Below the pieces are notes generated by a model that had not been told where the DNA came from, did not search any database, and saw only the letters and a program-made list of their open reading frames with translations. Shown piece by piece: positions 6,567 through 53,697 of a DNA stretch of 64,000 nt. The stretch lies in contig CAYWUL010000001.1 in assembly GCA_964461205.1 (NCBI GenBank), positions 28,549-92,548 of the forward strand, given 5' to 3'. The first letter of the stretch is position 1. The number at the start of each line of letters is the position of its first letter. Origin of the DNA: an uncultured archaeon. Its GTDB lineage: Archaea > Iainarchaeota > Iainarchaeia > Iainarchaeales > JAAZKV01. The translations under genes were made by a program, and so were the position numbers.

Positions 6567-6577
6567 TTTTTTTTAAA

Positions 6578-7720
6578 TTAACTTCTAGCAATTCCTAAAA
6601 GTGTTTTTGCCATGAACCAGTAAGAAGGTTTTTTTGCTAGTTTGCCAATGAATTGACTTGGTTCGTCCATGTCTCCTTCTTTTTCTAAAAAATCTTCAAT
6701 TCCTTTGTTCTTCAATTTTTCGAACAACTTATTGATTTGTTCATTGCTTAAATTATTAATATACTTTCTAATTTTCCAATGCACTCTAAGTTCTTTTTTT
6801 ATTTCAGATAAGTTTCTTTCGTAATCTTCTATTTTTCCTTGTTTTTTTAATGTTTCTGCAATTGTTTGTGCTAGAACATTTCCTGCTTTCATTCCAAACA
6901 CAATTCCTCCTCCGCTAGTAGATTTTGTTTGGAAAGCAGAGTCTCCAACAAGCATCATGTTTTCTTTTTGTATTCCTTGCAGAGGCAAACTATAAGGTAC
7001 AAGAGATGAAGTAGCAGCATACGCTTTTACAGCGGGCATTTTTTCTCTTAAAAAATCTTTAAAATTTTGTGTGATGTCTTCTCCTAAAATGTTTCCTAAA
7101 CCAATTTTTGCTTTTGTTTCGCTCATTGGAATGACCCATGCAAAAAAACCTTTTGCAAAATCTCCTAAGTGTAATTGTACGTATTCTTTTTCAAATTCTC
7201 CTGTACAAGTTGCTTGTATTGTGTGTACAAAATTTTCTTTTTGTGTTTTCAAACCCATTAAGTGTCTTACTGTAGAATTTACTCCGTCTGCTCCAACAAC
7301 ATATTCTGCCTTCCTAATTTCTCCTCGTCCATTAGCTTGTACAAACAAAGTATTATTTCTCACATCAATTAGTTTTGTGTTTGTTGCAATATGAATATTC
7401 AAGTTTCTAGCTTGTCTCATTAGATCATTGTCAAAAGTTTTTCTATCTACAACGTAAGCAACCGTTCTTGGTCTAGTAACTTTTAATTCAGTTCCATTTG
7501 GAGAATAAATTTTTGCTCCCCTAATTTCATTTAGTAAACTTCCTTGTACATCAACTTTTAATTCATCAATTCCTTTTTTAGAAATTAGTCCGCCACAATT
7601 CTCTGGAACACCAATTCTTTCATGTTCTTCTAAAACAATCGAATCAAAACCTTCTTTTTTCAATCTTATTGCTGTTGCTAGTCCTGCTGGCCCCGCTCCT
7701 ATAATTGCGACTGTATTCAT
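6578..7720 (-). CDS. geranylgeranyl reductase family flavoprotein (archaeal lipid/polyprenol saturase)
   Basis: N-terminal FAD fold VAIIGAGPAGLATAIRLKKEG...LEE; about 380 aa, as in the GGR family. Confidence 0.75.
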   Translation of the reverse strand: MNTVAIIGAGPAGLATAIRLKKEGFDSIVLEEHERIGVPENCGGLISKKGIDELKVDVQGSLLNEIRGAKIYSPNGTELKVTRPRTVAYVVDRKTFDNDLMRQARNLNIHIATNTKLIDVRNNTLFVQANGRGEIRKAEYVVGADGVNSTVRHLMGLKTQKENFVHTIQATCTGEFEKEYVQLHLGDFAKGFFAWVIPMSETKAKIGLGNILGEDITQNFKDFLREKMPAVKAYAATSSLVPYSLPLQGIQKENMMLVGDSAFQTKSTSGGGIVFGMKAGNVLAQTIAETLKKQGKIEDYERNLSEIKKELRVHWKIRKYINNLSNEQINKLFEKLKNKGIEDFLEKEGDMDEPSQFIGKLAKKPSYWFMAKTLLGIARS

Positions 7721-28018: not shown

Positions 28019-28828
28019 CTATTTCGCTCCTTTTTTTAATTCGTGAAAAAAATTGTATCTTACTGAAAAATTTTTTTCAAGCCACTTTAACATTTCCATT
28101 AAATTATTTATATTTTCTTTTGTAATTCCGTTTTTTACGCCAATATTTTTTGCATGCCCATGAAATGCAATAATTCCATTTTTTTTGATTATTTCTTTTA
28201 GCATTTCCTTGTCTCCAGAATTAATGTCAATATTCCTTGGTATGATAACAATTCCGTCAGAAGCTACCGGTTTCAAATAATTTGTTTTTTCTCCAGCAAA
28301 AGATTTTGTTTTCATATTATAAAATGAGTCTGCTATGCACAATTTATTTTCTTTTAAACAGGGTTTTATATATTTGTTTATTGACCAACCGGGGGGGGCA
28401 AAAACACTTATTTTTATTTTTAATTTTTTAAACTCCATTAATCCTTTTTCTATTCGCTCAACAGTTTCTTTTTTTCCAAGATCCTTAAATTCTTCTCCAG
28501 TATGAGTATTTTTATTGAAATGAGTATATCCATGCATTTCAAGTTTTATATTTTCTTTCATTTTTTGAATTTTACTCAGCCAAAAGCGATTGTTTGATAA
28601 TGCATTTTGTAAATTAATTTTTTCTTTTATTGTTTTGCCAAAAACCATATAGAGATGTTTTTTTATTATTGAGTTAGAATAACTATAAATTGGTGTGCAA
28701 AATGCAGTTACTTTGAGTCTTGGAAAATTTTTAAATAAACTTTTGAGGAGGTTTATTTCCTCAGAGTTTTCTGAAATAACTCCTGGATTGAAATCGTCCA
28801 CCCCAAAAATTATTGTTACTTTTTTCAT
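28019..28828 (-). CDS. polysaccharide deacetylase-like protein (DUF2334-like)
   Basis: IIFGVDDFNP, EMHGYTHF and FAPPGWSIN motifs. Stop/start abuts the GT4. Confidence 0.45.
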   Translation of the reverse strand: MKKVTIIFGVDDFNPGVISENSEEINLLKSLFKNFPRLKVTAFCTPIYSYSNSIIKKHLYMVFGKTIKEKINLQNALSNNRFWLSKIQKMKENIKLEMHGYTHFNKNTHTGEEFKDLGKKETVERIEKGLMEFKKLKIKISVFAPPGWSINKYIKPCLKENKLCIADSFYNMKTKSFAGEKTNYLKPVASDGIVIIPRNIDINSGDKEMLKEIIKKNGIIAFHGHAKNIGVKNGITKENINNLMEMLKWLEKNFSVRYNFFHELKKGAK

Positions 28829-28841
28829 ACTAAACTCTTCA

Positions 28842-30302
28842 TTATTTTTTTATCCTTGGTGCTAACCTACGTAAATCTTTTTTGGTTTTTACTTCAACAA
28901 ATCTTTTAACTCCCCAGATAAGATCATTTGGAGAACGCACTGTAGTCAAAAAATGAAGCATGTTTTTTGGCGAGGTAATACTTTTTTTCATCATTCCATC
29001 AATAACATCAACTGCTTCCATATATGCAATCTCCCGGTCTCTTGCAGGAAATTCTGGCGTTTCAAATACTGGTTTGTCTTTTCCGTAACTCATGAAGCTT
29101 CTGTAATCTACAACATCTTCATAGTCAACTAGTAATTTTCCATGTGCTTTAACATACTCCCACAATCGAGTGCTGGGAAAAGGAACTGCTTGATTTACTC
29201 CGGCAATATCTAAATTGAGGTTCTTCATGAAAGCTACGGTTTCTCTTGCCTTTTCGAGTGTTTCGTTTGGCAAGCCAATAATAAAATGGCCGCCAACGGC
29301 GGGAATTCCAACTTCTTTAGAAAGTTTCACTGCGTGTTTTATTTTTTCAATAGTTGTTGCTTTTCCTATTGCTGCTAATAACTCAGCATTTCCTGTTTCC
29401 ATTCCAAACCATAATTCACTACACCCAGCATCCCTCATTTTTTCTAACAATTCTCTTGAAACAGTATTTACATGTATTCCCGTAGCACAAGTCATGTTAA
29501 TGTTTAAATCTCTATTAATTATTTCGTCACAAATACCAATTGCTCTATCTTTTTGAATTGTAAAATTATCATCAGATATCCCAACTACTCTTTTAACCTT
29601 TTTTGCTGCATGAGGATATCTTTCAAATGCTTGTTCTAGTTCATCAGCAACATTTTCAGGTGAACGGGAACGCCAATTAGTATTAGTAACTGGCTTAGAA
29701 CAATAAACACAATTGTATGGGCATCCTCTGCTAGTCATAACATTAAATGGGGCATGATAACTATCAATGTCCAATAATTCTCTTGCTGGAAAAGGCAAAG
29801 AATCTAAATCTGATATGAGTGGGGCTGGAGGGGTCATTCGTGCTCGGCCATTACTATCTCGGTAAGCTATCCCTCTTATATTACTCAGATTTTTTTCATT
29901 AATCAAAGCATCTATTAAATCAGTAATTATTTCTTCTGCTTCTCCAATAGCAACAACATCAATATCTGGGACTTTTTCTATTATTTTTTCTCTGAAGATT
30001 GTTGCATGTGGGCCTCCAATAATTATTTTGTCACAATATTTACGTGCTTCTTTTATTGCTGATAGAGTATAATAAAATGATGGAGTTGTTGCTGTAAATG
30101 CAACAACCCTTGGATTTTTCTTAAGCTGGTCAAAAAGATATTTTTTTGAACGCATATATGGTGGGTCCGTCGCGTTAGCAAAAACGTCTGCGATCGCAAC
30201 AGAGAAGCCATTTTTTTTCAGTATTGCTGCCAGAGTAGCAATTCCAATTCTCATTTGCCCACTTCCATTTAATTCTACAAACAGAACATCCATAATAATC
30301 AA
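28842..30302 (-). CDS. B12-binding-domain radical SAM enzyme (class B-like), paralog A
   Basis: N-terminal Rossmann-like segment with IIGGPHATIF, then SRGCPYNCVYC (CxxxCxxC). Start may be MDVLFV (30290). Confidence 0.75.
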   Translation of the reverse strand: MIIMDVLFVELNGSGQMRIGIATLAAILKKNGFSVAIADVFANATDPPYMRSKKYLFDQLKKNPRVVAFTATTPSFYYTLSAIKEARKYCDKIIIGGPHATIFREKIIEKVPDIDVVAIGEAEEIITDLIDALINEKNLSNIRGIAYRDSNGRARMTPPAPLISDLDSLPFPARELLDIDSYHAPFNVMTSRGCPYNCVYCSKPVTNTNWRSRSPENVADELEQAFERYPHAAKKVKRVVGISDDNFTIQKDRAIGICDEIINRDLNINMTCATGIHVNTVSRELLEKMRDAGCSELWFGMETGNAELLAAIGKATTIEKIKHAVKLSKEVGIPAVGGHFIIGLPNETLEKARETVAFMKNLNLDIAGVNQAVPFPSTRLWEYVKAHGKLLVDYEDVVDYRSFMSYGKDKPVFETPEFPARDREIAYMEAVDVIDGMMKKSITSPKNMLHFLTTVRSPNDLIWGVKRFVEVKTKKDLRRLAPRIKK

Positions 30303-30377: not shown

Positions 30378-30803
30378 TTAGCTTCCAAAGTCACTCAATG
30401 AATTTGTCTTCCATTCAATTGTGGTGTCTTTGCTGATAGTATATGAAGAGATTCCTGCTTGTGCAAAAGAGCCATCAACATACAAACCAAGGTAATAACC
30501 TTCAGGTGGCTGAACACCATCAATAGAATTGACCATCACCCCAAATTCAAATTCGTCATAATCAACCTCGAAATTATTTTTCATTACCTCAAGAGCGTTT
30601 GTTCCGCTTTCGACATCGATTGATTTTTGGACAATTATATTTCCATTTGCATCAGTATATGAAAAATCAATTGTTACCATCTCCGAAGAATTGCTTGCAG
30701 TATCTGTTTGGGTGCAACCAAGCAAAAATAATACTGCTAATAGGAAAAGCAAACTTGTAATTCCTATAACCGTTTTTCTAATGTTTTCTTTTTTTTCAAT
30801 CAT
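30378..30803 (-). CDS. secreted lipoprotein-like DUF4430 (transcobalamin-like C-terminal domain) protein
   Basis: Signal plus lipobox-like LFLLGC. Then GTNALEVMK...FGVMVNSIDGV...YYLGLYVDGSFAQAGISSYTISKDTTIEWK, matching the DUF4430 pattern. Confidence 0.6.
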   Translation of the reverse strand: MIEKKENIRKTVIGITSLLFLLAVLFLLGCTQTDTASNSSEMVTIDFSYTDANGNIIVQKSIDVESGTNALEVMKNNFEVDYDEFEFGVMVNSIDGVQPPEGYYLGLYVDGSFAQAGISSYTISKDTTIEWKTNSLSDFGS

Positions 30804-30826
30804 TTGTTTTCACCCCTTATAATAAA

Positions 30827-32239
30827 CTAATTTTCTTTTTTAATTTTACCTTTATCTAAGAGTGCTCCGATTCTTGATTTTATTTTCTTAACTTTTTTGA
30901 ATGCAAATAATTTTATTCTCATAAATTGAAATGCATTATCAAATTCTTTTTTACTCTTAAAAGAAGTGTTAATTGTGCCACTTTTTAGGTAAATGTCATC
31001 AAAAATTGTTTTCATTTTTATTTTGCCCTGTTTTAAAGCAATATCAAATAATTTTGTTCCGGGGAAATAAATTATTCTGAATCCCCGGTCAATAAAAATA
31101 TTTTCTTTATTATAATTTTTTTCGATAAACTTTCTTGTTTCCTTCATTGTTTTTTTGTTTTCTCCAGGCAGACCAAAAATTATATTGTATGCTCCTTTCA
31201 CTCCGGACCTAGAACAAAGAGTCATGGATTCTTCAACGTCTTGCATAGTTATCCCTTTTCCAGATGTGGCAAGTATTGAATTAGCGGCACTTTCAAGTCC
31301 AAAATTTATTGTATCACAACCAGCGTTTTTCATTAGTTTATAAACTTTCAGACTTTTAACAGAGTTAACCCTTGCCGTACAACTCCATTTGATATTAAGT
31401 CTTTTTTTGATTACTTTTTTACAGAACTCTTCAACCCGTTTTTCATTAAAAAGAAATTCAAGATCCTGAAAGTAAAATGATTTAAAACCAAAATCTTTTA
31501 ATATTTCAATTTCTTTGATCACATCATCGATTTTTCGTTGTCTGAACCCGGGGCCGTACATTGTTTTATTACAAAACAAACACGCTCCGGGGCAGCCCCT
31601 ACTTGATTGTATTATTGCTGCTTCGTATTTTTTCAGGTCAATTAATCCATAATCGGGGACGGGCATTTTTTCCATGTTAAAAGGATCAAACATTTTTTTC
31701 ATTTGAATCCTTTTCTTCTTGTCGAAATAAGCAACATTGTTAGTTTTTTTAAATCCGTTTTTGCAAATATTGGTTATTGGATTTTCTGGCTCACCAATTA
31801 TCAAAAAATCGGCGTGGCTTTTTTCAAGAATAAATTCTGGAAGAGAAGTTGGGTGCGGTCCAAAAACTCCAAACTTGCATTTGAATGCTTCTCTTATTTT
31901 TTTTGAGTTTTTTTCAAGCAATGCTGGTGGCAATGGACATTGCCAACTGCCAATGTAACTGGTGGAAAGAAGCACAAGGTCTGGTTTGAAATATTTTGCT
32001 TTTTCTAATAATGTCCCATAAGAATCAACATTAAGATCAATAATTGAAACTTTTATTCCTTTTTTTTCTAGTATTGTTGCTGGGAAAAGTAAGTCTAGTG
32101 GGAGTTGCTTTCGAAAATGGATAAAAAAAGAATTGTCTTTTTCAATTTCCTTAGGAACTTTTATTTTCTTTGGATATTTCATCTCAACAAACAAGACTTT
32201 TTTGTATTTGTACCTTTCTTTGTGTTTTTCTATTTTCAT
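30827..32239 (-). CDS. B12-binding-domain radical SAM enzyme, paralog B
   Basis: FGVFGPHPTSLP in the N-terminal domain, then SRGCPGACLFC. ...INFGLESA... TIM-barrel landmarks. Confidence 0.7.
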   Translation of the reverse strand: MKIEKHKERYKYKKVLFVEMKYPKKIKVPKEIEKDNSFFIHFRKQLPLDLLFPATILEKKGIKVSIIDLNVDSYGTLLEKAKYFKPDLVLLSTSYIGSWQCPLPPALLEKNSKKIREAFKCKFGVFGPHPTSLPEFILEKSHADFLIIGEPENPITNICKNGFKKTNNVAYFDKKKRIQMKKMFDPFNMEKMPVPDYGLIDLKKYEAAIIQSSRGCPGACLFCNKTMYGPGFRQRKIDDVIKEIEILKDFGFKSFYFQDLEFLFNEKRVEEFCKKVIKKRLNIKWSCTARVNSVKSLKVYKLMKNAGCDTINFGLESAANSILATSGKGITMQDVEESMTLCSRSGVKGAYNIIFGLPGENKKTMKETRKFIEKNYNKENIFIDRGFRIIYFPGTKLFDIALKQGKIKMKTIFDDIYLKSGTINTSFKSKKEFDNAFQFMRIKLFAFKKVKKIKSRIGALLDKGKIKKEN

Positions 32240-33729: not shown

Positions 33730-35448
33730 ATGCTAGAAAAAACTTTTTACTTTATAAGTATCTTCTTAGTATCGCTAATGATTCTTGGGATTTATCTAGG
33801 GTATTCTGGGCTTATTTCTTTTCAAGTAACTCTTATTACAATAATAATTTCTGCGGTTATTTCTTTATTCATTGTTGTAAAACAAAATAAAGAAGCGGAT
33901 AAAAATTTTAAGTCCAAAAAGAAAAAATTAACAGTACTTGTTTTTTTAATTTTCTTATTTTTTTTTGCTTTTCTTGTTTTTCCGGAAGGGGTTTTTCCAG
34001 TTACTTGTTCGGACATAATGAATCATTCTCTTGCAACCAGAATAATTGGGCAAACAGGATTTATTCCGAATTCTGAATCAGATGCTTTTTTTTCGGGAAT
34101 TCCATTAACTTATGTGCATGTATATCCTCAAGGATTTTATGCTATTTCAGCTCAGATTTATACTCTTTTTCCAAATGCATATTTGGTAAATTCAGTTCTT
34201 GCAATTATTTTAACTTTTTTCTCAGCAATTGGTATCTTTATTATTACTAAAAAAATTTCAAATGAAAACTCTGCGATTTTAGCAACACTAATATTTTTTT
34301 CTTCAATAACCACTTTGTGGATAATCGAGTCTGGTTTTATACCACAGATTCTTGGATCTTTTTTTCTTTTGGTAATACTTTTAGCTTACATACAAAAAAA
34401 CAAAGTATTATTTTTTATTTCATCTATTGGTTTAATCTCTTATCCTCCACTAATAGCCGTTTTATTTTTGTTCTTGATTATTGATTTTTTATTAAAATCT
34501 AATTTTTCTTTTAAAAAAATACAGAAAAACTTTTTTGAATGGATGAAATATTTTATTCTAGCAATTATATCTTTTTTTGTTGTGTTTCCAGAATTCTTTG
34601 GTTTACTAATACAATATACAACCGTTGAGAAATTTTGGAAAGGGGCCTTGTTAATAAGGGGCGGAATTTTCTCACCAAATCCGTTTGGTTTGTTAATTTT
34701 TGTCCCTGTTCTTCTTGTATTATATCTTTTTATTTTTAGGAAGAAAAAATTCTCTATTGGTCTTAGGCCTTGTTTTGCTATGTTGGTTGCTGGGTTACTA
34801 ATGAGCGGGGCGGTGGTATTTTATTTTATTATAAATTTATTACTTACAATAGTTGATGTAAAACAAATTCATTCATTGTACCAAGCAGTTAAATTTTTTT
34901 ATTTTGCGTTAATAATTGCAAGTATTTTTTCAGGAATCGGTTTTGAATTATTGTTTTCTAAATTTACAAAAGGAAAAATAAAATTTATCTTAATTGCAGT
35001 ACTATTATTTGGTGTTGTTTATTTTTTTGGTTACTCAACTGTCTTATTTGCAAAAGATTCTGAAGTAATTGGTTTTTATTCCACTTCAGAATTTGTTGAA
35101 TCTTTGCCAGAAGGATCAATAATTGGTGTGGATTCATGCGCACTAAAACTAGATTATGTTCCGAACCCTTTTATTTATAAATCGCTTTTTGATAATCCTG
35201 ATCCAAGTGGAGAAAATATTTGCAGGCAAACAGAAATAACCCGTGCTTTTCGGCCATCCTATGCAACACACGATTTTATTGATGGGCGGTTTAGGATTTT
35301 TGATTCTACTAGTAAAGAGTTAGTTTTAATTGGTAATGAAATAAATCCAACAATGAGCAATATTAATTATTTTTACACAACTTGTTTAAGCATAAATGCC
35401 CCTCTTATTTTTGAATCAGGAAAAACCAGGATTTATAAAATAAATTAA
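33730..35448 (+). CDS. large polytopic membrane protein with C-terminal soluble domain (possible Wzy-like polymerase or GT-C enzyme); function unknown
   Basis: 572 aa, at least 12 hydrophobic segments followed by about 130 soluble residues. Divergent from the Wzx gene. No diagnostic motif recognised. Confidence 0.3.
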   Translation: MLEKTFYFISIFLVSLMILGIYLGYSGLISFQVTLITIIISAVISLFIVVKQNKEADKNFKSKKKKLTVLVFLIFLFFFAFLVFPEGVFPVTCSDIMNHSLATRIIGQTGFIPNSESDAFFSGIPLTYVHVYPQGFYAISAQIYTLFPNAYLVNSVLAIILTFFSAIGIFIITKKISNENSAILATLIFFSSITTLWIIESGFIPQILGSFFLLVILLAYIQKNKVLFFISSIGLISYPPLIAVLFLFLIIDFLLKSNFSFKKIQKNFFEWMKYFILAIISFFVVFPEFFGLLIQYTTVEKFWKGALLIRGGIFSPNPFGLLIFVPVLLVLYLFIFRKKKFSIGLRPCFAMLVAGLLMSGAVVFYFIINLLLTIVDVKQIHSLYQAVKFFYFALIIASIFSGIGFELLFSKFTKGKIKFILIAVLLFGVVYFFGYSTVLFAKDSEVIGFYSTSEFVESLPEGSIIGVDSCALKLDYVPNPFIYKSLFDNPDPSGENICRQTEITRAFRPSYATHDFIDGRFRIFDSTSKELVLIGNEINPTMSNINYFYTTCLSINAPLIFESGKTRIYKIN

Positions 35449-35470: not shown

Positions 35471-36871
35471 TTGAAGGTTGCTTTAGTTTATCCATTCTTA
35501 CTTTCAGGCCAATCAATTTCTGCTCCACTTGGACTTCTTTATATTGCTTCTGTTCTAAAAAAAGATCATGACATAAAAATAATTGATTCTACTTTTTCTA
35601 AATCAATCGAATTCATAAAAAAAGAATTAATTGATTTTACGCCGGAAGTAGTGGGTATATCAAGTTCTTCAGCAATGGCTGAGGGGGCATTTAAAACAGC
35701 AGAAATCGCAAAAAGAATTGGTTCAATGGTTGTTCTTGGAGGTGTTCATTCCACACTTTTTCGTGAAGAGTGTATAAAAAACAAAAATATTGATTTTGTT
35801 ATTCCTGAAGAAGGCGAAATTCCTTTCAAAGAATTAGTAGCAGCCTTTGAATCGGTGAAAAGTAATGGAAAAGAGTTGTCTCAAGTTGGGTTAGTTAAAG
35901 GGGTTTTATCAAAAAACCACGATTTTATTCCTGCTGAAAAAATAGAGGATTTGGATGTAATTCCCTTTCCTGCGTGGGAATTATTGCCTACTCGAGAAAA
36001 ATATCTGAATGCATCAGGGGGCAGACTTTCAATTATTGCTAGTAGAGGATGTATATTTCGTTGTAGCTATTGTCAACCCACACTAAAAAAGATATTTGGG
36101 GAAAAAGTACGAATGCGATCACCAAAAAATGTTGTGGATGAAATCGAAATGGATGTAAAAAAATTTGGTGCTAAATCAATTGCATTTCAAGATGATACAT
36201 TTACTTGGAATAAAGAATGGCTTTCTGAGGTTTGTGACTTAATGAAAAAAAAATTTAACGGAAAAATTCCTTTTAGAATAAATTCTCGTGTAAATACTAT
36301 TGATGAAGAAAAATTAATTAAACTCAAAAAAGCAGGTTGTTCACTTATTTCATTTGGTGTTGAATCGGGTTCGCAAAGAATTCTCGATGAAATACTTCAT
36401 AAAGGAATAAAAACTGAACAAGTAATAATGGCATTTAATTTGGCAGAAAAAGTTGGCATAAGGGCAACAGCGTATATTATGCTTGGCAATCCAACAGAAA
36501 CAAAAGAAGACATAGAAAAAACAATTTCTCTACTAGAAAAAATAAACCCCTTTAATATTTATTTGTCAGTCACAAATCCCCTTCCCCACACAGACTTATA
36601 TTCTATTTATGAAAAAATGGATATTCTTATTCCCGGTGCAAACAAGTATTATTATCGGAGTTTTGACTCAATGCCTTTGCGATTAAAACACCTAAAAGAA
36701 GAAGACATTAACAAAGCAAAGGAAAGAATAGAAAAAATTGCAAGACAAAAAATGATAAAACATTTAATTAAAGATTATGCTAGAGGGGTTTCACATTTAA
36801 AAATACTGTCAACTGTAAAACTGATGAGAGAAGACTTTGGGTCTGCGATAGCTTTGAAAAAAATATTGTGA
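35471..36871 (+). CDS. B12-binding-domain radical SAM enzyme, paralog C
   Basis: TTG start. VVLGGVHSTLF, then SRGCIFRCSYC. ISFGVESGS landmark. Confidence 0.7.
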   Translation: MKVALVYPFLLSGQSISAPLGLLYIASVLKKDHDIKIIDSTFSKSIEFIKKELIDFTPEVVGISSSSAMAEGAFKTAEIAKRIGSMVVLGGVHSTLFREECIKNKNIDFVIPEEGEIPFKELVAAFESVKSNGKELSQVGLVKGVLSKNHDFIPAEKIEDLDVIPFPAWELLPTREKYLNASGGRLSIIASRGCIFRCSYCQPTLKKIFGEKVRMRSPKNVVDEIEMDVKKFGAKSIAFQDDTFTWNKEWLSEVCDLMKKKFNGKIPFRINSRVNTIDEEKLIKLKKAGCSLISFGVESGSQRILDEILHKGIKTEQVIMAFNLAEKVGIRATAYIMLGNPTETKEDIEKTISLLEKINPFNIYLSVTNPLPHTDLYSIYEKMDILIPGANKYYYRSFDSMPLRLKHLKEEDINKAKERIEKIARQKMIKHLIKDYARGVSHLKILSTVKLMREDFGSAIALKKIL

Positions 36872-43441: not shown

Positions 43442-43981
43442 TTATGCTCTTGCGACGTTAATAAAAAATGCTTTTACTTTTGAGTCTTCAAGATTTTTAT
43501 TATCAAGTATGAATTTTTCAACAAGTGGAGTGAACACTAATACAAAACCACTTACTGTTGCAAGGTGTAATATTGTGAAAGGAATTTGTCCTATCAATGC
43601 AATTTCAAAGCTGTATCCAAATAGTAACGGCATCATCATTACTCCTGTAACAAAATCAAATATTAGTACCCCCACAACGCCCGAAGCCAGATAATGTTTC
43701 ATTTTTATCTTTTTAAATTTTTTATAAGTAAAAAAGAAAAATGCTCCAAGAAAACCATATGTTAGGGCAGTAACAATTGTCCAAATGCCAACAAAACCAG
43801 TTATTAAATCAAAAGAGACCATTGTAATAATTGGGAAAAAAACAGCCACAGAGAGTTTTTCTTGTTTTGAAAAGGGTAGCATAAAACTCATTATGGGGTC
43901 ATTATTTGGAATAAATCTAAAAATACGAATGAGATTTGACACTAGTATTGTGAAAAATATTTTTGTAACTCCAATTCCCAT
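43442..43981 (-). CDS. small 5-6 TM membrane protein, ECF-S-component-sized (DUF6580-like putative transporter)
   Basis: 179 aa. RFIPNNDPIMSFMLPF near the N-terminus and LIFDFVTG...IPFTILHL resemble my recollection of the DUF6580 pattern (R-l-i-P-h-p-P-N-f-t-P-i). Low certainty. Confidence 0.35.
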   Translation of the reverse strand: MGIGVTKIFFTILVSNLIRIFRFIPNNDPIMSFMLPFSKQEKLSVAVFFPIITMVSFDLITGFVGIWTIVTALTYGFLGAFFFFTYKKFKKIKMKHYLASGVVGVLIFDFVTGVMMMPLLFGYSFEIALIGQIPFTILHLATVSGFVLVFTPLVEKFILDNKNLEDSKVKAFFINVARA

Positions 43982-44045
43982 GAATTAAAAAGTACTTATT
44001 CCTTTATTTAAAGTTAACTGGTTCAAATATTTTTTCTCTTAGTGC

Positions 44046-45134: not shown

Positions 45135-46089
45135 TTATTTTCCCCCAAATTAATCCAATTCCAAAAACAACACTTCTTAAAAACAAAATTATTGGACTTG
45201 CTAATGCAACTGCTTTATCTTTTTTCCAAGAAAGAGAAAACAATTTTGCTCCAAGCAACAAATGTATTATTAAGAAAAATAAAGCAACAAACACAAGACT
45301 AATTGCTAACAAGGAAAAAATTAATGCGAGGATAACTAAATAAAAACAAATGATTTGTAATTTCAATGTTTGTGGAGTATATGAATCCTTCAACATCTTT
45401 TTCTTGTGCTTTGAATACATTCTTGGTCTATAAAACGCACGAAAGAATTTTATTTTCAAATATTTTGACAATTTTTTAGGATGAAAATGATAAACAATTG
45501 CTCTTGGGTTAAAAACAATTCTTCCTCCTTTTTCATGCAATTTATAACTCAATTCAGGGTCTTCTCCGCTAGCAATCGGAAAACTCTCATCAAAACCGCC
45601 AACAGAAAAATATTCTTTTTTATTGTAAGCCGCACTATAACTACCAACCCAATCAATGCTCTTCGATTTTTTCATTTTTTCATATCTCTCTTCAATTTCT
45701 ATTTGAGAAAACCTGGCCGTTAGTTCTTTTTGTTTAGTTTTATATGCTCCTTGAACAGCAACAACTTTCTTATCATCAAAAGGTTTTATCATTTCCTCTA
45801 ACCAATTTTTTTCAGCAACACAATCCGAATCAATAAATAAAATTATTTCTCCCTTGGCTTTTTTTGCCCCAATATTCCTTGCTTTTGCTGGCCCTTTGTT
45901 TTTTTGATAAAAATAGCCAACTTTTTTTGATTTAATTTTTTGAATTTCTTTTTTTGTGTTATCTATGCTTCCATCATCAACACAAATAATCTCAAATTGT
46001 TTCTTTGTTTTTTGTTCTAATAAAGAATTAAGAGTATTTGAAATAGTTTTTTCGCAATTGTAACACGGAATTATTATTGAATAAAACAT
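45127..46089 (-). CDS. GT2 glycosyltransferase with C-terminal TM helices
   Basis: IIIPCYNCEKT...CVDDGSIDNT...IDSDCV. Start codon shares a base with the upstream radical-SAM stop (TAATG). Confidence 0.8.
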   Translation of the reverse strand: MFYSIIIPCYNCEKTISNTLNSLLEQKTKKQFEIICVDDGSIDNTKKEIQKIKSKKVGYFYQKNKGPAKARNIGAKKAKGEIILFIDSDCVAEKNWLEEMIKPFDDKKVVAVQGAYKTKQKELTARFSQIEIEERYEKMKKSKSIDWVGSYSAAYNKKEYFSVGGFDESFPIASGEDPELSYKLHEKGGRIVFNPRAIVYHFHPKKLSKYLKIKFFRAFYRPRMYSKHKKKMLKDSYTPQTLKLQIICFYLVILALIFSLLAISLVFVALFFLIIHLLLGAKLFSLSWKKDKAVALASPIILFLRSVVFGIGLIWGKING

Positions 46090-47558
46090 TATTTTCTCAC
46101 TAAATATTTTAATAAAGTAAAACCGCCCTTTGCTAGCCGTGGTATTTCTCGAGGATTAGTAACTGCTTGTGTTACTTTTGATAAAACATACCTTGGCCTA
46201 ACATAAAAAGCTCTTCTTGACTCATCTGTTAATTCGTTTAATTCTTTTGAACTTAACCCTGGCCTAGACAACAAAGTTCTGTGTGTTCCATCTTTGTTCA
46301 ACCAATCACTCCACTTTTTTGCTTTCAAATAACCTTTTTTCTTTGCCCAATTATAAGTCTCTGTTCCCGGATAAACCATTACTGGAAAAAATTGTGCTGT
46401 GTCCGGATTTAATTCTCTCGCAAACTTTGCTGTTTCTCTTATTGTTTCTTTTGTCTCTCCTTGATTTCCAAACATAAAACAACCATGGACCAGTATTCTT
46501 GCTTTTTTTGAATCCTTCATAAACTGCCTTATGCCATTTGGGGTAGTCCCCTTATGAATATTATTTAATATTTCTTGATTTGCACTTTCAATTCCAACGC
46601 ACATTAATCTACAATGAGCTTTTTTCATCCACTTTAGTACTTCCAAAGAAACATCAGCTCTTGCATTACAACTCCAAGTTAACTTTATTTTACGTTTTAT
46701 TATTTCTTTGCAAAGCTCAATGGTTCTTTCTTTGTCTTGTGTTAAAGTATCATCTTCAACCATAACTTCTTTTACTTCTGGCAAATTTTTTTCTATCCAT
46801 GCAAACTCATCAACAACACTCTTCACACTTCTCTTTCTATACAATCTTCCTGAAAATGTTTGTGGCCATTTACAAAAAGCACATCTATTTGGGCACCCTC
46901 TTCCAGTAAGAATAGTAACTTCTGGATATTGAACAGATGGATAAAAATAATTTTCAATTCCAAGGTATTCTTTGTAAATCTCTGAAACAAAGGGCAACCA
47001 ATCTAATTCTTTTTCGCTTGGCGGATCTCTTTCAAGTGTTTTAATAATTTTTTTTCCTTTTTTGTAAGCAATTCCTTTTACATTACTCAAACTTTTTTTT
47101 TCTTCCAACACCTTAACAATTTCTGGCAAAATAAAATCATATTCTCTTATTGCAACAAGGTCTGCCTTAGTTTCTTTCAAACTTCTTTCTGGCAACACAC
47201 TAACATGGTCTCCTACTAAGACAAGCGTTGTGTTTGGAAATTCTTTTTTTATTCTTGCAACAATTTTTTTGTCATTATCAAATGAAGGAGTTACCGTATC
47301 AATAACAATCATTTCTGGTTCAAATTCTTTTATTCTTTTCATTGTCTGATTTAAAGTAATGTTTTCTCCAGAAGCATCCAATAACAAAACATCATTCTTA
47401 CCTTTTTTCAATGCACCTGTTGCATAAGCCAACCAAATAGGATAATACACACAGCCACCCTTACTTACTCCTGGACTTCTAGATGTCCTAGAAAATTTTT
47501 TCATAAAAGGAGGATTCAACATCAATACTTTCATCTTTCTCACATCTTGTTCATTCAC
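46089..47558 (-). CDS. B12-binding-domain radical SAM enzyme, paralog D (HpnJ-like flavour)
   Basis: LVLVGDHVSVLP, then EVTILTGRGCPNRCAFCKWPQT. CVGIESA landmark. Confidence 0.7.
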   Translation of the reverse strand: MNEQDVRKMKVLMLNPPFMKKFSRTSRSPGVSKGGCVYYPIWLAYATGALKKGKNDVLLLDASGENITLNQTMKRIKEFEPEMIVIDTVTPSFDNDKKIVARIKKEFPNTTLVLVGDHVSVLPERSLKETKADLVAIREYDFILPEIVKVLEEKKSLSNVKGIAYKKGKKIIKTLERDPPSEKELDWLPFVSEIYKEYLGIENYFYPSVQYPEVTILTGRGCPNRCAFCKWPQTFSGRLYRKRSVKSVVDEFAWIEKNLPEVKEVMVEDDTLTQDKERTIELCKEIIKRKIKLTWSCNARADVSLEVLKWMKKAHCRLMCVGIESANQEILNNIHKGTTPNGIRQFMKDSKKARILVHGCFMFGNQGETKETIRETAKFARELNPDTAQFFPVMVYPGTETYNWAKKKGYLKAKKWSDWLNKDGTHRTLLSRPGLSSKELNELTDESRRAFYVRPRYVLSKVTQAVTNPREIPRLAKGGFTLLKYLVRK

Positions 47559-50699: not shown

Positions 50700-52796
50700 C
50701 TATTTTATTTTGAATATCTTCAGGCCACCGCTGTCAAAAACCGGTTCGTAGTATTTAGAAGTTTCATCTGAATTAAAATAAACCTTTGCAAGATTTGTTT
50801 CATTGTATGAAGGACCAATAACAATCAAAATATTGTCGTTTCTATAGTAAAACAAAGGAAGTTGCCCATTGTAAAAGTCTGTTGGAGCGCTGGTCCATTT
50901 ATCTTTTGCCATTTGTTCAAATTGTTCTGTAGGAATTGTTTGTCCGTTGCACACTAAACCATTGTCAGAGGGAGAACAACCTATAAACCTAGACTGGAAA
51001 TCGGAAAAATTATTTGAAACTGAGGAATCAATTTTTCCAGCAGCATAAAATGCAAAAGATTGCCCTGAAGAAAAATTATTTGGATGTATTATTACATAGT
51101 CGGCACCGATTTTGTTCTTTGCAATATCATATGCTTTATTGACATCACTTGTAATCATAAACTCAGCATAATTTGAGTTTGCCTCTGCAGAATAATTCCT
51201 ATTGTCTGAAGAAAAATTCCTTTCAGTTACAAATGCGAGTTGGTGGCCTTCTCCCCACCAATTGAAGAACTTTGCTTCTTTTGTAGTATTATTATTTATC
51301 CAATCCATTGCATCAATCCACCGCGTATCAGAATTTGCAAAAGGTTGGAATTGATTCAAATATATTGGTGCTGCTGCCACACCTAAAACAATAATAAAGA
51401 ACAATGCCCCGATAATAATTTTCGCTTCAATTCCTTTTTCAGCATTGTATTTCTCAAGTAACTTAAAAAAGAAGTCAACTGCTAACAAGGCTCCCATTAC
51501 TAATCCAAGTCCAAAAACAAAAGTAAACTTCAACTTATAATATGCCATAAATAAAGTAACAAGTGTTCCAAACCAAAGTAAGACCTGCAAGTGAATATCT
51601 TTTCTTTTTAATAAAAACAAGCCAAAAGGGAAAAGAACCAAACCAATAATTGGGAGTATAAGCAATACATTATATTTTATTCCAAAAGAAGTTATTCCAA
51701 GACTTTCTTCTCCCACCATAGAAATAATACTTGTCCGCCCGCTATTGTAAAAGAAATCAGGCACAATAACAAACATAAATGCCACTAATAATAATCCAAT
51801 ATATAGAAGTGCTATTGCTAGATAAAGACCCATCTTTCTTCCTGACTTATCAAGACTCTGTAAATAAAAAGCCAATGCAATGAAGGCAATTACACCTATA
51901 ACCCCAATTAATAAAGCAAAAAATCCATCAACATTAAGCACTTCAACTAATACATTTGTCGCAGCAGTAATCCAATCTGAACCATAAATAAAAGAAATAA
52001 TTGTGTAAATACCAAGAGCAATTGCTGACTTTATTATAATGTTTAATACTGCTGAATCCTTGAGTGGCTTTTTCTTTGAATCATATGTCTTGTAAAGAAG
52101 GATTATTGCTATTGAAGGAATTAGTACCACTGGAATAAGTAAATGCAGACTCCATCCGATGGCCATCAAAGAAAAGAAAATTCCTGCTAAAACAGCATTT
52201 ATCAAATCTTTTTTTGTTCTTGTATCTGTTTTCAGTGCTCTAACAAAAAACACTAAACCAATAACCATCCACAAAAAGCCCATAGAATTATCTCCTTGTG
52301 CACCAGCCATTGTTCGGTAAGCAAAAGCAGGAGTAACTGCAGTTAAAAAGCCAGCAATTAAACCAATTTTCTTACTATCAAAAATTTCTTTTCCGAGAAA
52401 GTACATCCCAATGCTTATTAGTGCTCCAAAAATAACTGGAAAGAACTGTACTGTAAAAGCGAGCAACTCTTTGTTGAAAGCCCCCAATGCAACTATTTCA
52501 TAAAGAAACCAACTAAGGTAGTGGTATAACGAAGGCGGTGCAGAAACCGCTCCATTAGGAAGCTGATAGTAAACATTTGGGTCAATATTATTTATGTAAC
52601 CTTGTTGTGCTAGTTCTTCAACAAGCCTTGCGTGATAATAAGCATCAGGCTCAAATAAATAATTTCCTTCAAATCTAACAATGTTACTTCTTATTGACAT
52701 TGCAAACAAAAATAATACGATTAGTACAAGAATCATTTTTCTATTATCATAGACTTTTTTTTTTATCTCTTTAATATTTGCATTCAAAAAAATCAC
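50700..52796 (-). CDS. aglB: oligosaccharyltransferase AglB (STT3 homolog)
   Basis: 698 aa, 13-TM-like N-terminal half with first-loop EPDAYYH, loop SMVGEES, and C-terminal domain with AMDWINNNT...FFNWWGEGHQLAF at the WWDYG position. Confidence 0.85.
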   Translation of the reverse strand: MIFLNANIKEIKKKVYDNRKMILVLIVLFLFAMSIRSNIVRFEGNYLFEPDAYYHARLVEELAQQGYINNIDPNVYYQLPNGAVSAPPSLYHYLSWFLYEIVALGAFNKELLAFTVQFFPVIFGALISIGMYFLGKEIFDSKKIGLIAGFLTAVTPAFAYRTMAGAQGDNSMGFLWMVIGLVFFVRALKTDTRTKKDLINAVLAGIFFSLMAIGWSLHLLIPVVLIPSIAIILLYKTYDSKKKPLKDSAVLNIIIKSAIALGIYTIISFIYGSDWITAATNVLVEVLNVDGFFALLIGVIGVIAFIALAFYLQSLDKSGRKMGLYLAIALLYIGLLLVAFMFVIVPDFFYNSGRTSIISMVGEESLGITSFGIKYNVLLILPIIGLVLFPFGLFLLKRKDIHLQVLLWFGTLVTLFMAYYKLKFTFVFGLGLVMGALLAVDFFFKLLEKYNAEKGIEAKIIIGALFFIIVLGVAAAPIYLNQFQPFANSDTRWIDAMDWINNNTTKEAKFFNWWGEGHQLAFVTERNFSSDNRNYSAEANSNYAEFMITSDVNKAYDIAKNKIGADYVIIHPNNFSSGQSFAFYAAGKIDSSVSNNFSDFQSRFIGCSPSDNGLVCNGQTIPTEQFEQMAKDKWTSAPTDFYNGQLPLFYYRNDNILIVIGPSYNETNLAKVYFNSDETSKYYEPVFDSGGLKIFKIK

Positions 52797-53502: not shown

Positions 53503-53561
53503 GTACAAAACAATGCTCTCTTTATTAAAAAATTTATACTTTTTAGAAAAATACAATAAGT

Positions 53562-53675
53562 GAGGCAACAGTCGGCCGGTTCCACTACAAAGAGCAGTAC
53601 CAAACCATTCCTGACAAGACTTAACTTCCGGGTTCGGAATGGGTCCGGGTGTTACCCTTGTGGCATGGTCGCCTC
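53562..53675 (-). rRNA. rrf: 5S ribosomal RNA (stand-alone)
   Basis: Minus strand reads GAGGCGACCATGCC...AACACCCGGACCCATTCCGAACCCGGAAGTTAAGTC...GTTGCCTC. Loop C/helix III core matches the archaeal 5S consensus and the terminal helix pairs. Ends are +/- 3 nt. Confidence 0.85.
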
Positions 53676-53697
53676 GTATATATCTCTAATATGAGGG

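What the first reader, a model, noticed from the sequence alone, without database searches (positions are those of the whole stretch)
30378..30803. Transcobalamin-like (DUF4430) lipoprotein sandwiched between two B12-radical-SAM genes
Seen: a 141-aa ORF with a hydrophobic leader ending in a lipobox-like LFLLGC. It continues with GTNALEVMK...FGVMVNSIDGV...LYVDGSFAQAGISSYTISKDTTIEWK. It sits 75 nt downstream of radical-SAM B and 23 nt upstream of radical-SAM A on the same strand. Known: to my recollection, DUF4430 (PF14478) corresponds to the C-terminal cobalamin-contacting domain of transcobalamin/intrinsic factor and occurs in prokaryotic surface proteins next to B12 uptake genes. Inference: this is a surface B12-capture protein co-transcribed with the enzymes that consume the cofactor. 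That would make the island a self-contained cofactor-scavenging plus glycan-tailoring unit. It would matter for an organism that probably cannot make cobalamin and must take it from a host or community.
Basis: partly seen in the sequence, partly recalled or inferred. Interest (0 to 1): 0.65.

Follow-up and report, generated by a model that had tools for sequence, protein, structure and literature searches.

The report
Archaeal surface vitamin B12 catcher
A small membrane-anchored protein with the fold of the B12-gripping half of human transcobalamin sits between two B12-dependent enzymes in a DPANN-like archaeon, and together with a small membrane transporter encoded 13 kb away it probably forms a vitamin B12 uptake pair that has not been tested experimentally.

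Summary
ORF 30378..30803 (-) encodes 141 aa with a hydrophobic leader ending in LLGC. It matches DUF4430 (E 1.2e-12) and lies between two B12-binding radical-SAM genes.

An AlphaFold model (pLDDT 89.8) matches only transcobalamin, haptocorrin and intrinsic-factor beta domains and one bacterial DUF4430 structure. No polysaccharide-export proteins matched.

- **Partner gene.** In relatives, mostly DPANN archaea, this lipoprotein gene almost always directly follows, or is fused to, a ~180-aa six-helix membrane protein. That protein is a divergent DUF6580 member whose model matches only ECF-transporter S-components.
- **Partner in the window.** It is encoded at 43442..43981 (-), in the same glycan island.
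- **Link to B12 enzymes.** In 68 dereplicated loci, the transporter gene's immediate neighbours are enriched for B12-radical-SAM and class II (B12) ribonucleotide reductase genes: 19/117 neighbours versus 5/329 genes farther away, p 3.5e-8.
- **Slot swap.** In two syntenic relatives the transporter gene occupies the very slot, between the two radical-SAM orthologs, that DUF4430 occupies here.

Best reading: an extracellular cobamide-capture lipoprotein hands B12 to an S-component-like importer that supplies four B12-radical-SAM enzymes. Ligand binding, co-transcription and B12 auxotrophy are untested. I class it as a new variant of a known kind.

The parts
30378..30803 (-). 141-aa DUF4430 (transcobalamin-beta-like) predicted lipoprotein, the subject of the finding
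   Evidence: ORF. PF14478 E 1.2e-12. AF2 model pLDDT 89.8. Foldseek top 19 hits are all transcobalamin/haptocorrin/intrinsic-factor beta domains or 3u7z.
30714..30803 (-). Residues 1-30: signal peptide or membrane anchor ending in the lipobox LLGC, with Cys30 as the predicted lipidation site
   Evidence: Lipobox regex match and hydropathy. G29 and C30 kept in at least 90% of 40 relatives. AF2 models a helix at residues 9-27.
30399..30683 (-). Residues 41-135: beta-grasp ligand-binding domain with the order beta-beta-alpha-beta-beta-beta-beta
   Evidence: Per-block pLDDT 93-98 across the domain, with secondary structure E42-50, E56-65, H70-77, E80-85, E88-94, E103-109, E127-135. TM-score 0.77 and rmsd 2.4 A to the isolated human transcobalamin beta domain 5no0.
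30810..30816 (-). GGGGTGA, a Shine-Dalgarno-like motif 7-13 nt upstream of the ATG, inside the 23-nt spacer after radical-SAM A
   Evidence: Read directly from the sequence. Its function is inferred.
30827..32239 (-). B12-binding radical-SAM enzyme A (470 aa), immediately upstream
   Evidence: PF02310 and PF04055. No NCBIfam equivalog reached its cut-off.
28842..30302 (-). B12-binding radical-SAM enzyme B (486 aa from TTG, or 483 aa from the ATG at 30293), immediately downstream
   Evidence: PF02310 and PF04055. Gene callers use the 483-aa start.
43442..43981 (-). 179-aa six-helix membrane protein, S-component-like and a divergent DUF6580 member: the predicted cobamide importer partnered with the DUF4430 lipoprotein
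   Evidence: - Homolog of the membrane protein adjacent to or fused with DUF4430 in relatives (tblastn E 6e-33).
- AF2 pLDDT 92.9.
- Foldseek top 15 hits are all ECF S-components.
- PF20221 at 20.3 bits, below the gathering score of 27; 22 of 29 relatives hit PF20221.
- Neighbour enrichment for B12 enzymes.
44005..44012 (-). TTTAAATA, an archaeal TATA-box-like motif 24-31 nt upstream of the membrane-protein ATG
   Evidence: Read directly from the sequence. Promoter function is inferred.
35471..36871 (+). B12-binding radical-SAM enzyme C (466 aa)
   Evidence: PF02310 and PF04055.
46089..47558 (-). B12-binding radical-SAM enzyme D (489 aa), two genes upstream of the membrane protein on the same strand
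   Evidence: PF02310 and PF04055. Same gene order on other contigs.

Best explanation
The 141-aa protein is exported, anchored to the outer face of the cytoplasmic membrane through its lipobox cysteine or its uncleaved leader, and folds into a beta-only transcobalamin-like domain. I propose that it captures a cobamide (vitamin B12 or a relative) from the surroundings, as the transcobalamin beta domain does in the first binding step. It would then pass the cobamide to a small S-component-like membrane transporter, encoded in this window at 43442..43981, which carries it into the cell. There the cofactor would load the four B12-binding radical-SAM enzymes of this glycan-biosynthesis island.

**Shown here**
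- Domain identity and fold.
- The conserved lipobox.
- Conserved adjacency or fusion with the membrane protein.
- Enrichment of B12-enzyme genes beside that membrane protein.
- The slot swap in syntenic relatives.

**Inferred**
- The ligand.
- The hand-off from lipoprotein to transporter.
- The direction of transport.
- Lipidation.
- Co-transcription with radical-SAM A.
For: 1. **Domain and fold.** PF14478 scores E 1.2e-12. A family profile hits only transcobalamin beta domains in the PDB. The AF2 model (pLDDT 89.8) gives 19 Foldseek hits at E<=1e-4, all transcobalamin, haptocorrin or intrinsic-factor beta domains or the R. gnavus DUF4430 structure 3u7z. The next hit is at E 8e-3.
2. **A beta domain alone can bind.** The isolated transcobalamin beta domain binds cobalamin and cobinamide (PMC5599065). 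It performs the initial binding step, and beta-only B12 carriers exist in some organisms (PMC11107200).
3. **Extracytoplasmic location.** The leader and lipobox are present and the Gly-Cys pair is near-invariant across the family. Lipobox proteins are predicted to be common in DPANN (PMC12462473).
4. **Partner.** In the archaeal loci L007-L011, found with a DUF4430 query, the gene directly follows a ~180-aa membrane protein. Three database representatives (P0010, P0017, P0110) are fusions of the two.
5. **Adjacency statistics.** In 68 dereplicated transporter-seeded loci, DUF4430 is an immediate neighbour in 14. That is 14/117 neighbours versus 2/329 farther genes, odds ratio 22, p 2.9e-7.
6. 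**Partner fold.** AF2 pLDDT is 92.9, and the top 15 PDB matches are all ECF S-components (RibU, FolT, ThiT, BioY, PanT), with TM-scores mostly 0.5-0.67.
7. **B12 link.** Among 82 immediate non-DUF4430 neighbours of the transporter gene, the commonest Pfam families are B12-binding (10), Radical_SAM (9), and ATP-cone, RNR_Alpha and RNR-II_ins_dom (6-7), the last three marking class II B12 ribonucleotide reductase. B12-enzyme genes make up 19/117 neighbours versus 5/329 farther genes, odds ratio 12.6, p 3.5e-8. Some overlap the transporter gene in operon fashion, as in L031 and L037.
8. **Slot swap.** In syntenic L021 and L022 the transporter gene lies between the orthologs of radical-SAM B (67-68% identity) and radical-SAM A (57-64%). 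That is exactly where DUF4430 lies in the window.
9. **Fuller loci.** Some relatives add a DUF4430 plus alpha/alpha-toroid protein with transcobalamin-like architecture. They also add a winged-helix protein with a weak match to the DUF4430 family profile.
Against: - No binding experiment exists for this protein or for any close relative.
- The transcobalamin alpha domain, which supplies half of the binding surface and the selectivity, is absent. Affinity and specificity could therefore differ.
- I could not map the cobalamin-contacting residues of transcobalamin onto the model.
- The closest relatives have Leu where many family members and transcobalamin have Trp (YYLGLY versus YWALY or FWQLL).
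- A Lactobacillus sakei ECF-like system with transcobalamin alpha-like and beta-like proteins was linked to haem uptake (bioRxiv 10.1101/864751).
- Burroughs et al. 2007 cautioned that archaeal members might bind another metabolite.
- In this window the lipoprotein and transporter genes are 12.6 kb apart rather than adjacent.
- The Foldseek E-values for the transporter are weak (0.1-0.8), and the window member scores below the DUF6580 gathering cut-off.
- The locus clusters are not phylogenetically independent and my gene calls are crude, so the p-values overstate certainty.
Confidence: 0.62

Rival explanations
1. The architecture and location are as proposed, but the ligand is a different tetrapyrrole or cofactor, for example haem or a corrinoid precursor, and the pair imports that compound.
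For: - The L. sakei lsa1836-1840 ECF-like operon, with transcobalamin beta-like and alpha-like proteins, was linked experimentally to haem content.
- Burroughs 2007 cautioned that archaeal members may scavenge a distinct metabolite.
- The alpha domain that gives transcobalamin its selectivity is absent.
Against: - The transporter gene's neighbours are specifically enriched for cobalamin-dependent enzymes. No haem enzyme family appears among the 25 commonest neighbour families.
- In the window the gene sits between two B12-binding enzymes, and the slot swap reproduces that link.
- A cobinamide-type corrinoid precursor would still count as a cobamide-family ligand.
Confidence: 0.15
2. The beta-grasp (SLBB) domain binds a sugar or glycan, as in Wza-type polysaccharide export proteins, and helps export or anchor the glycan made by the island.
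For: - The gene lies in a glycan island directly after a Wzx-like flippase and radical-SAM A.
- The SLBB superfamily includes polysaccharide-export proteins.
- L008 has an ABC-2-type exporter pair about 1 kb downstream.
Against: - Pfam assigns the protein to the transcobalamin clade (PF14478), with no hit to any polysaccharide-export family.
- No Wza or other polysaccharide-export structure appears among the 50 best fold matches.
- Relatives are generally not in glycan islands. They sit next to the S-component-like transporter, B12 ribonucleotide reductase or B12-radical-SAM genes.
Confidence: 0.06
3. The position between two B12-radical-SAM genes is an accident of rearrangement. The protein is a general surface protein of unknown role, unrelated to the island's enzymes.
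For: - In all other archaeal loci examined, the DUF4430 gene is next to the membrane protein and not next to radical-SAM genes.
- Two bacterial relatives, L012 and L014, sit in unrelated contexts.
Against: - The partner transporter gene independently sits beside B12-radical-SAM genes in at least 9 dereplicated loci. In L021 and L022 it occupies the same slot.
- The arrangement is identical on 11 contigs from several samples.
Confidence: 0.1

Closest known systems
C-terminal beta domain of transcobalamin, haptocorrin and intrinsic factor (Pfam DUF4430, PF14478; PDB 5no0, 5np4, 2bb5, 4kki, 2pmv)
   Same: Same Pfam family and same beta-grasp fold with the order hairpin, helix, hairpin, hairpin. 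TM-score 0.77 and rmsd 2.4 A to the isolated human beta domain. The isolated beta domain binds cobalamin and makes the first contact.
   Different: There is no alpha/alpha-toroid alpha domain in this protein. It is membrane-anchored by a lipobox rather than soluble. Sequence identity is only 16-20%. It is archaeal, and its predicted receiver is a membrane transporter rather than an endocytic receptor.
Bacterial transcobalamin-like SLBB surface proteins in ECF-type (CbiO/CbiQ-like) operons (Burroughs et al. 2007, PMC1796856), including L. sakei Lsa1839/Lsa1840 with Lsa1836-1838
   Same: A secreted DUF4430 protein predicted to scavenge a corrinoid for an ECF-family S-component. Paralogous DUF4430 proteins and toroid-containing partners occur in the same loci.
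   Different: - No EcfT or EcfA module lies next to the transporter gene in the window or in most related loci.
- The S-component belongs to a divergent DUF6580 branch.
- The pair is sometimes fused into one polypeptide.
- The lineage is DPANN archaea.
- The L. sakei system was assigned to haem.
BtuM (Thiobacillus denitrificans), a solitary S-component-like B12 transporter (PMC6072759)
   Same: A small, roughly 20-kDa six-helix S-component-like protein that appears to work without a nearby ECF module and is linked to B12 by gene context.
   Different: - There is no detectable sequence similarity: the profile search against the PDB returned nothing.
- The family has no invariant cysteine equivalent to BtuM Cys80.
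- BtuM has no extracellular DUF4430 partner.
- BtuM did not appear among the fold matches listed.
BtuG, BtuH and BtuJ surface lipoproteins of Bacteroides
   Same: The functional idea is the same: a lipid-anchored surface protein captures B12 and feeds a membrane transporter (abstracts).
   Different: The folds are unrelated. BtuH's B12-binding domain is DUF4465, and from my own recollection BtuG is a beta-propeller. The receiver there is an outer-membrane TonB-dependent transporter. No Pfam match to those families was seen here.

Membership tests
DUF4430 / transcobalamin-like clade of the SLBB beta-grasp superfamily | Significant match to PF14478 above the gathering score | tested here: met
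   E 1.2e-12, 48.5 bits against a cut-off of 23.8, residues 67-133.
DUF4430 / transcobalamin-like clade of the SLBB beta-grasp superfamily | Beta-grasp fold whose closest solved structures are transcobalamin, intrinsic-factor or haptocorrin beta domains | tested here: met
   AF2 pLDDT 89.8. The top 19 Foldseek PDB hits are all of this kind (E 1e-6 to 9e-5), and the next hit is at 8e-3.
DUF4430 / transcobalamin-like clade of the SLBB beta-grasp superfamily | The two superfamily-conserved glycines and the clade-specific beta-hairpin insert with a hydrophobic base-stacking residue (Burroughs 2007) | tested here: inconclusive
   G67, G88 and G117 are invariant or near-invariant in the family. I could not map them, or the stacking residue, onto the published positions without coordinates. 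The window protein has Leu where many members have Trp.
DUF4430 / transcobalamin-like clade of the SLBB beta-grasp superfamily | Binds cobalamin or another corrinoid | not testable with these tools
   Requires UV-vis or ITC on purified protein.
Transcobalamin / intrinsic factor / haptocorrin (two-domain carriers) | N-terminal alpha/alpha-toroid alpha domain joined to the beta domain | tested here: not met
   The protein is 141 aa with only a leader plus DUF4430 and has no Prenyltrans-type hit. Toroid-containing DUF4430 proteins occur in related loci L024, L039 and L048, and L009 has a toroid protein beside its pair, but none was found in the window.
Prokaryotic lipobox lipoprotein | N-terminal signal peptide ending in a lipobox with an invariant Cys | tested here: met
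   A PROSITE-type pattern matches residues 1-30. G29 and C30 are kept in at least 90% of 40 relatives. Position -2 is Leu, outside the strict [ASTVI] set quoted in PMC12462473.
Prokaryotic lipobox lipoprotein | Actual lipidation and cleavage (AliA/AliB-dependent in archaea) | not testable with these tools
   The literature reports only that lipoproteins and AliA are predicted in DPANN.
ECF-transporter S-component (for the partner at 43442..43981) | Six-helix S-component fold | tested here: met
   AF2 pLDDT 92.9. The top 15 Foldseek PDB hits are all S-components, with TM-scores mostly 0.5-0.67 and probability 0.9-1.0, although E-values are 0.1-0.8.
ECF-transporter S-component (for the partner at 43442..43981) | Works with an EcfT plus EcfA/A' module | tested here: inconclusive
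   No ABC ATPase or CbiQ-type gene appeared among the scanned window ORFs or among the common neighbour families. A crude motif scan found ABC-like ORFs in only 3 loci. The rest of the genome could not be examined.
DUF6580 (PF20221) putative transport proteins | Match to PF20221 at or above the gathering score | tested here: inconclusive
   The window protein scores 20.3 bits (E 6.8e-4) against a cut-off of 27. 22 of 29 relatives hit at E<=0.01, best 1.8e-7. NCBI names one relative as a 'DUF6580 family putative transport protein'.
BtuM | Sequence similarity to BtuM and an invariant cobalt-ligating cysteine | tested here: not met
   The profile search against PDB sequences gave no hit at E<=10. 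There is no invariant Cys in the 29-sequence alignment.
Polysaccharide-export SLBB proteins (Wza/OPX type) | Match to a polysaccharide-export family, or fold matches to Wza-type SLBB repeats | tested here: not met
   PF14478 was the only Pfam hit. No Wza or other polysaccharide-export structure appears among the 50 best fold matches.

The most novel reading that the evidence does not exclude
The DUF4430 lipoprotein and the divergent-DUF6580 S-component form a two-part cobamide uptake system that needs no ECF module and has not been characterised. If so, it would be the main B12 import route of DPANN archaea (Diapherotrites/Iainarchaeota, Micrarchaeota and relatives), would give DUF6580 a function, and would show that the 'beta domain first' capture step of animal transcobalamin is an ancient free-standing prokaryotic module.
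Probability: 0.4. Interest if true: 0.7.

Novelty: new variant of a known kind. Interest (0 to 1): 0.55.

Why it matters
- **DPANN dependence on partners.** DPANN archaea have small genomes and are thought to depend on neighbours for cofactors. How they obtain vitamin B12 is not established in any paper I could find in the held library.
- **Demand for B12.** This window encodes four B12-dependent radical-SAM enzymes in one surface-glycan island, so B12 supply is likely to limit what the cell can put on its surface.
- **A testable candidate.** The analysis names a concrete uptake pair: a 141-aa capture lipoprotein and a 179-aa S-component-like transporter.
- **Functions for unknown families.** It proposes a function for a large family of unannotated membrane proteins, with at least 1042 database clusters at the edge of DUF6580. 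It also extends the 2007 prediction about bacterial transcobalamin-like proteins to archaea, where that paper was explicitly unsure.
- **Easy to test.** Both proteins are small, and standard binding and complementation assays would settle the question.

Tried and rejected
- **Word-indexed homolog search** with the single protein found only itself. With the family profile it found 9 proteins. The exhaustive HMMER search was needed and found 632 hits.
- **Single-sequence PDB search** gave only noise, including a weak match of the leader to an archaeal pilin. The family profile was needed to reach transcobalamin.
- **The 40-sequence alignment** was too diverse for back-translated locus searching. 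A 9-sequence subset found only 3 genome loci.
- **The membrane-protein profile** gave no PDB sequence hit, and one fused representative gave no Pfam hit on its own.
- **The sigma-70 promoter scan** is uninformative for an archaeon: 27 sites against 24.8 expected. It found no terminator in either spacer.
- **Rfam** found no cobalamin riboswitch in the window, only 5S rRNA and one tRNA.
- **Cluster look-up** gave no organism or product names for either protein.
- **Archaeal type IV pilin reading of the N-terminus:** rejected. The match is E 0.17 on the hydrophobic helix only, and the conserved feature is Gly-Cys, not a pilin cleavage site.
- **Wza-type polysaccharide export role:** rejected.
- **Membership of BtuM, BtuG or BtuH:** rejected.
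- **Mapping cobalamin contact residues:** I could not do this, because neither coordinates nor a residue list were available in the papers I read.
Full report
**1. The observation**

In + coordinates it lies 75 nt after ORF 28842..30302 (486 aa) and 23 nt before ORF 30827..32239 (470 aa). All three are on the minus strand, so the gene order is radical-SAM A, then the small ORF, then radical-SAM B.

Pfam gives PF14478 (DUF4430) at E 1.2e-12, 48.5 bits against a gathering score of 23.8, over residues 67-133. It gives B12-binding plus Radical_SAM for both neighbours. Neither radical-SAM protein reaches the cut-off of any NCBIfam equivalog, so their exact reactions are unknown.

The leader has a net positive n-region and a strongly hydrophobic core at residues 12-26. 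It ends in LLGC, which fits a PROSITE-type lipobox pattern. Identical gene calls with identical neighbours occur on 11 metagenome contigs from several samples.

**2. The setting**

The window is archaeal. It encodes an L10/P0 protein with the archaeal/eukaryotic insertion domain, an STT3/AglB oligosaccharyltransferase, TruD and a geranylgeranyl-reductase-like protein.

The closest relatives of one window protein are named Candidatus Diapherotrites or Micrarchaeota MAGs. The organism is therefore probably a DPANN archaeon. This is an inference.

The region from about 11 to 53 kb is a surface-glycan island. It holds many glycosyltransferases, a Wzx-like flippase, a DegT aminotransferase, sugar epimerases, methyltransferases, a cis-prenyltransferase, Alg13-like and AglH-like proteins, and AglB. 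It contains four B12-binding radical-SAM genes, not two. The other two are at 35471..36871 (+) and 46089..47558 (-).

No cob, cbi, btu or ECF-module gene was seen among the roughly 40 ORFs scanned, and about 20 ORFs of 100 aa or more were not scanned. Rfam finds no riboswitch.

**3. What the protein is**

A single-sequence search of PDB sequences found nothing meaningful, and the word-indexed search found only the protein itself.

The exhaustive HMMER search found 632 relatives at E<=1e-3. Most are 120-145 aa with the same layout. In a 40-sequence alignment the Gly-Cys of the lipobox is kept in at least 90% of sequences, and the domain carries conserved motifs: GTNAF.AMK, FG.FV.SI.G, YWALYVNG.YA.KGI..Y and IEWK.

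A profile of that alignment hits only transcobalamin 1 and 2 in the PDB, and the matches align over the beta domain (E 0.002-0.04).

An AlphaFold2 model built on the alignment has pLDDT 89.8, with 93-98 in the domain. Its order is hairpin, helix, hairpin, then further strands, the order described for the transcobalamin beta domain. Foldseek against the PDB returns 19 hits at E<=1e-4. Every one is a transcobalamin, haptocorrin or intrinsic-factor beta domain or 3u7z, a Ruminococcus gnavus DUF4430 protein. TM-score is 0.77 and rmsd 2.4 A to the isolated human beta domain, and the next hit is at E 8e-3. No polysaccharide-export structure appears.

The protein is therefore a beta-only, membrane-anchored transcobalamin-like domain. 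It is not a transcobalamin, because it lacks the alpha/alpha-toroid domain.

**4.

Three database representatives (P0010, P0017, P0110) carry the DUF4430 domain fused behind a multi-helix membrane domain.

In the archaeal loci retrieved with a DUF4430 query (L007-L011), the DUF4430 gene directly follows a free-standing ~180-aa homolog of that membrane domain, often overlapping it. The window encodes a homolog at 43442..43981 (-), 12.6 kb away in the same island (tblastn E 6e-33).

This membrane family is large, with at least 1042 clusters, mostly from Diapherotrites and Micrarchaeota MAGs. Its invariant residues include PN.DP, FD, W-T, D..TG and QIPFT..H.

The window member scores 20.3 bits on PF20221 (DUF6580), below the cut-off of 27. 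Of 29 relatives, 22 hit that model at E<=0.01 and nothing else consistently.

Its AlphaFold2 model (pLDDT 92.9) matches ECF-transporter S-components exclusively in the top 15 PDB hits: RibU, FolT, ThiT, BioY and PanT, with TM-scores mostly 0.5-0.67. After those, TM-scores fall to about 0.2. The E-values are weak, at 0.1-0.8.

It has no sequence similarity to BtuM or to any solved S-component, and it has no invariant cysteine.

**5. The link to B12**

I fetched 80 metagenome loci seeded on the membrane protein. I searched them with HMMs built from the DUF4430 family, the membrane family, the window's four radical-SAM proteins and a class II ribonucleotide reductase set.

After dereplication at 85% identity there were 68 clusters:

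| Immediate neighbour of the transporter gene | Clusters (of 68) |
|---|---|
| DUF4430 gene | 14 |
| B12-dependent enzyme gene | 17 |
| Either | 30 |

Using genes farther away in the same loci as a control gives:

| Gene type | Immediate neighbours | Farther genes | Odds ratio | Fisher p |
|---|---|---|---|---|
| B12-dependent enzymes | 19/117 | 5/329 | 12.6 | 3.5e-8 |
| DUF4430 | 14/117 | 2/329 | 22 | 2.9e-7 |

An independent Pfam scan of 82 immediate non-DUF4430 neighbours ranks B12-binding (10) and Radical_SAM (9) first. Next come ATP-cone and RNR_Alpha (7 each) and the B12-dependent ribonucleotide reductase insertion domain (6). No other family exceeds 5. One such neighbour is confirmed as a class II reductase.

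Several pairs overlap in operon fashion (L031, L037, L077, L086, L097, L099). In a Diapherotrites genome the transporter gene lies about 700 nt upstream of a thioredoxin gene and a class II reductase gene.

The caveats are that the clusters are not phylogenetically independent and my gene calling was a simple greedy ORF choice.

**6. The slot swap**

L021 and L022 come from relatives whose island is syntenic with the window. The order there is DegT, a MetW-like methyltransferase, DUF2334, GT4, the radical-SAM B ortholog (67-68% identity), the radical-SAM A ortholog (57-64%), a flippase and GT1.

In both, the gene between the two radical-SAM orthologs is the S-component-like membrane protein, 54-60% identical to the window's. 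In the window that slot holds the DUF4430 lipoprotein gene, and the membrane-protein gene sits two genes downstream of radical-SAM D.

Two different genes that are elsewhere adjacent or fused thus occupy the same slot between the same two B12 enzymes in related genomes. This is the strongest single argument that both serve B12 supply.

**7. Fuller versions of the system**

Loci L024, L039 and L048 carry the pair plus two further genes. One encodes a 510-540-aa protein with DUF4430, a prenyltransferase-type alpha/alpha toroid and an NPCBM_assoc domain, which is transcobalamin-like architecture. The other encodes a ~175-aa winged-helix (ArsR-type) protein with a weak match to my DUF4430 family profile.

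L023, L025 and L029 show weaker DUF4430-profile hits in the corresponding positions. L009 has a 664-aa toroid protein beside the pair.

Burroughs et al. 2007 described exactly such extracellular and regulator architectures for the transcobalamin-like SLBB clade. They predicted B12 scavenging with CbiO/CbiQ-type operons in bacteria and left the archaeal ligand open.

**8. Mechanism proposed**

1. The protein is exported and tethered at Cys30, or by its uncleaved leader, on the outside of the membrane. This is inferred. Lipobox proteins and the lipidation enzyme AliA are predicted to be common in DPANN.
2. Its beta-grasp pocket binds a cobamide. This is inferred from homology. The isolated transcobalamin beta domain binds cobalamin and cobinamide and makes the first contact.
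3. It passes the cofactor to the S-component-like membrane protein, which moves it inward. This is inferred from adjacency, fusion and fold. The topology fits: in the fusions an extra helix with a lipobox-like motif follows the six-helix domain, placing DUF4430 outside.
4. Whether an ECF energising module is used is unknown. None is nearby, which recalls the solitary S-component-like BtuM.
5. The imported cofactor serves the four radical-SAM enzymes, which presumably modify the island's glycan. This is inferred.

A GGGGTGA motif 7-13 nt before the ATG, in the 23-nt spacer, suggests translation from a shared transcript with radical-SAM A. The 75-nt spacer downstream has a small hairpin, a TATA-like ATTATAAAG, and GGAG 4 nt before the TTG start. 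Radical-SAM B may therefore have its own promoter. The membrane-protein gene is preceded by TTTAAATA 24-31 nt upstream of its ATG. None of this is evidence of expression.

**9. Rivals**

- **A different ligand, such as haem.** An L. sakei ECF-like system with transcobalamin-like proteins was tied to haem. The B12-enzyme enrichment argues against this. I give it 0.15.
- **A glycan-binding role like Wza SLBB repeats.** This is contradicted by family, fold and the contexts of relatives. I give it 0.06.
- **An accidental location.** This is contradicted by the slot swap and the repeated radical-SAM adjacency of the partner. I give it 0.10.

**10. Novelty and verdict**

Two things are already known. 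DUF4430 is the transcobalamin beta domain, and bacterial secreted homologs were predicted to scavenge B12 for ECF-type transporters (Burroughs 2007).

The following were not described in any paper I could find:
- the beta-only lipoprotein paired or fused with a divergent DUF6580 S-component, with no adjacent ECF module;
- the spread of this pair in DPANN archaea;
- its statistical tie to B12-radical-SAM and class II ribonucleotide reductase genes;
- the slot swap.

I class it as a new variant of a known kind. My confidence in the proposed mechanism is 0.62 and my interest score is 0.55.

Noticed in passing
window 28842..30302, 30827..32239, 35471..36871, 46089..47558: Four paralogous B12-binding radical-SAM genes lie in one archaeal glycan/N-glycosylation island that also holds AglB (STT3) at 50700..52796. 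None reaches an NCBIfam equivalog cut-off, so their substrates are unknown. One possibility is C-methylation or another tailoring step on sugars.
   Followed up: partly
L021 1..2907; L022 309..12555: In a syntenic island from related organisms, the S-component-like membrane gene lies between the orthologs of radical-SAM B and A. In the window that slot holds DUF4430.
   Followed up: yes
L077 821..3681; L086 5731..8768; L097 5923..8767; L099 45..2857: More distant members of the membrane-protein family are followed directly, often with overlap, by a ~760-aa class II (B12-dependent) ribonucleotide reductase gene. This looks like a two-gene operon.
   Followed up: partly
L024 5368..5892 (-) and 6005..7555 (+); similar in L039 and L048: Next to the transporter/DUF4430 pair there are two further genes. 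One encodes a ~175-aa ArsR-type winged-helix protein with a weak match to my DUF4430 family profile, a possible ligand-sensing regulator. The other encodes a 510-540-aa DUF4430 + alpha/alpha-toroid + NPCBM_assoc surface protein with full transcobalamin-like architecture.
   Followed up: partly
window 33730..35448 (+): A 572-aa protein with many predicted membrane helices and no Pfam hit lies between the flippase and radical-SAM C. It is conserved on other contigs of the same organism. It could be a glycan polymerase or a transferase.
   Followed up: no
window 7814..10393 (-) and 57124..59226 (+): Two large proteins (859 and 700 aa) carry fibronectin-III and Big_7 Ig-like domains. They are probably surface or S-layer-type proteins and possible targets of the glycan island.
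   Followed up: no
window 53560..53676 (-): A stand-alone 5S rRNA gene (64.9 bits) with no 16S or 23S nearby in the window. The window also holds only one tRNA gene, tRNA-Gln at 6493..6567.
   Followed up: no
window 28019..28828 (-): A DUF2334 protein is encoded directly after radical-SAM B and before a GT4 glycosyltransferase. The same trio is conserved in L022.
   Followed up: no
L014 3199..4193: In a bacterial contig near prophage-like lysis genes, a 160-aa DUF4430 protein is followed, with overlap, by a 170-aa membrane protein. That protein is only faintly similar (E about 8e-4) to the archaeal transporter family, so this may be a bacterial counterpart of the pair.
   Followed up: no
L016 5001..10540: In a Diapherotrites genome the transporter gene has no DUF4430 neighbour. 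It lies about 700 nt upstream of a thioredoxin gene and an intein-containing class II ribonucleotide reductase gene.
   Followed up: no
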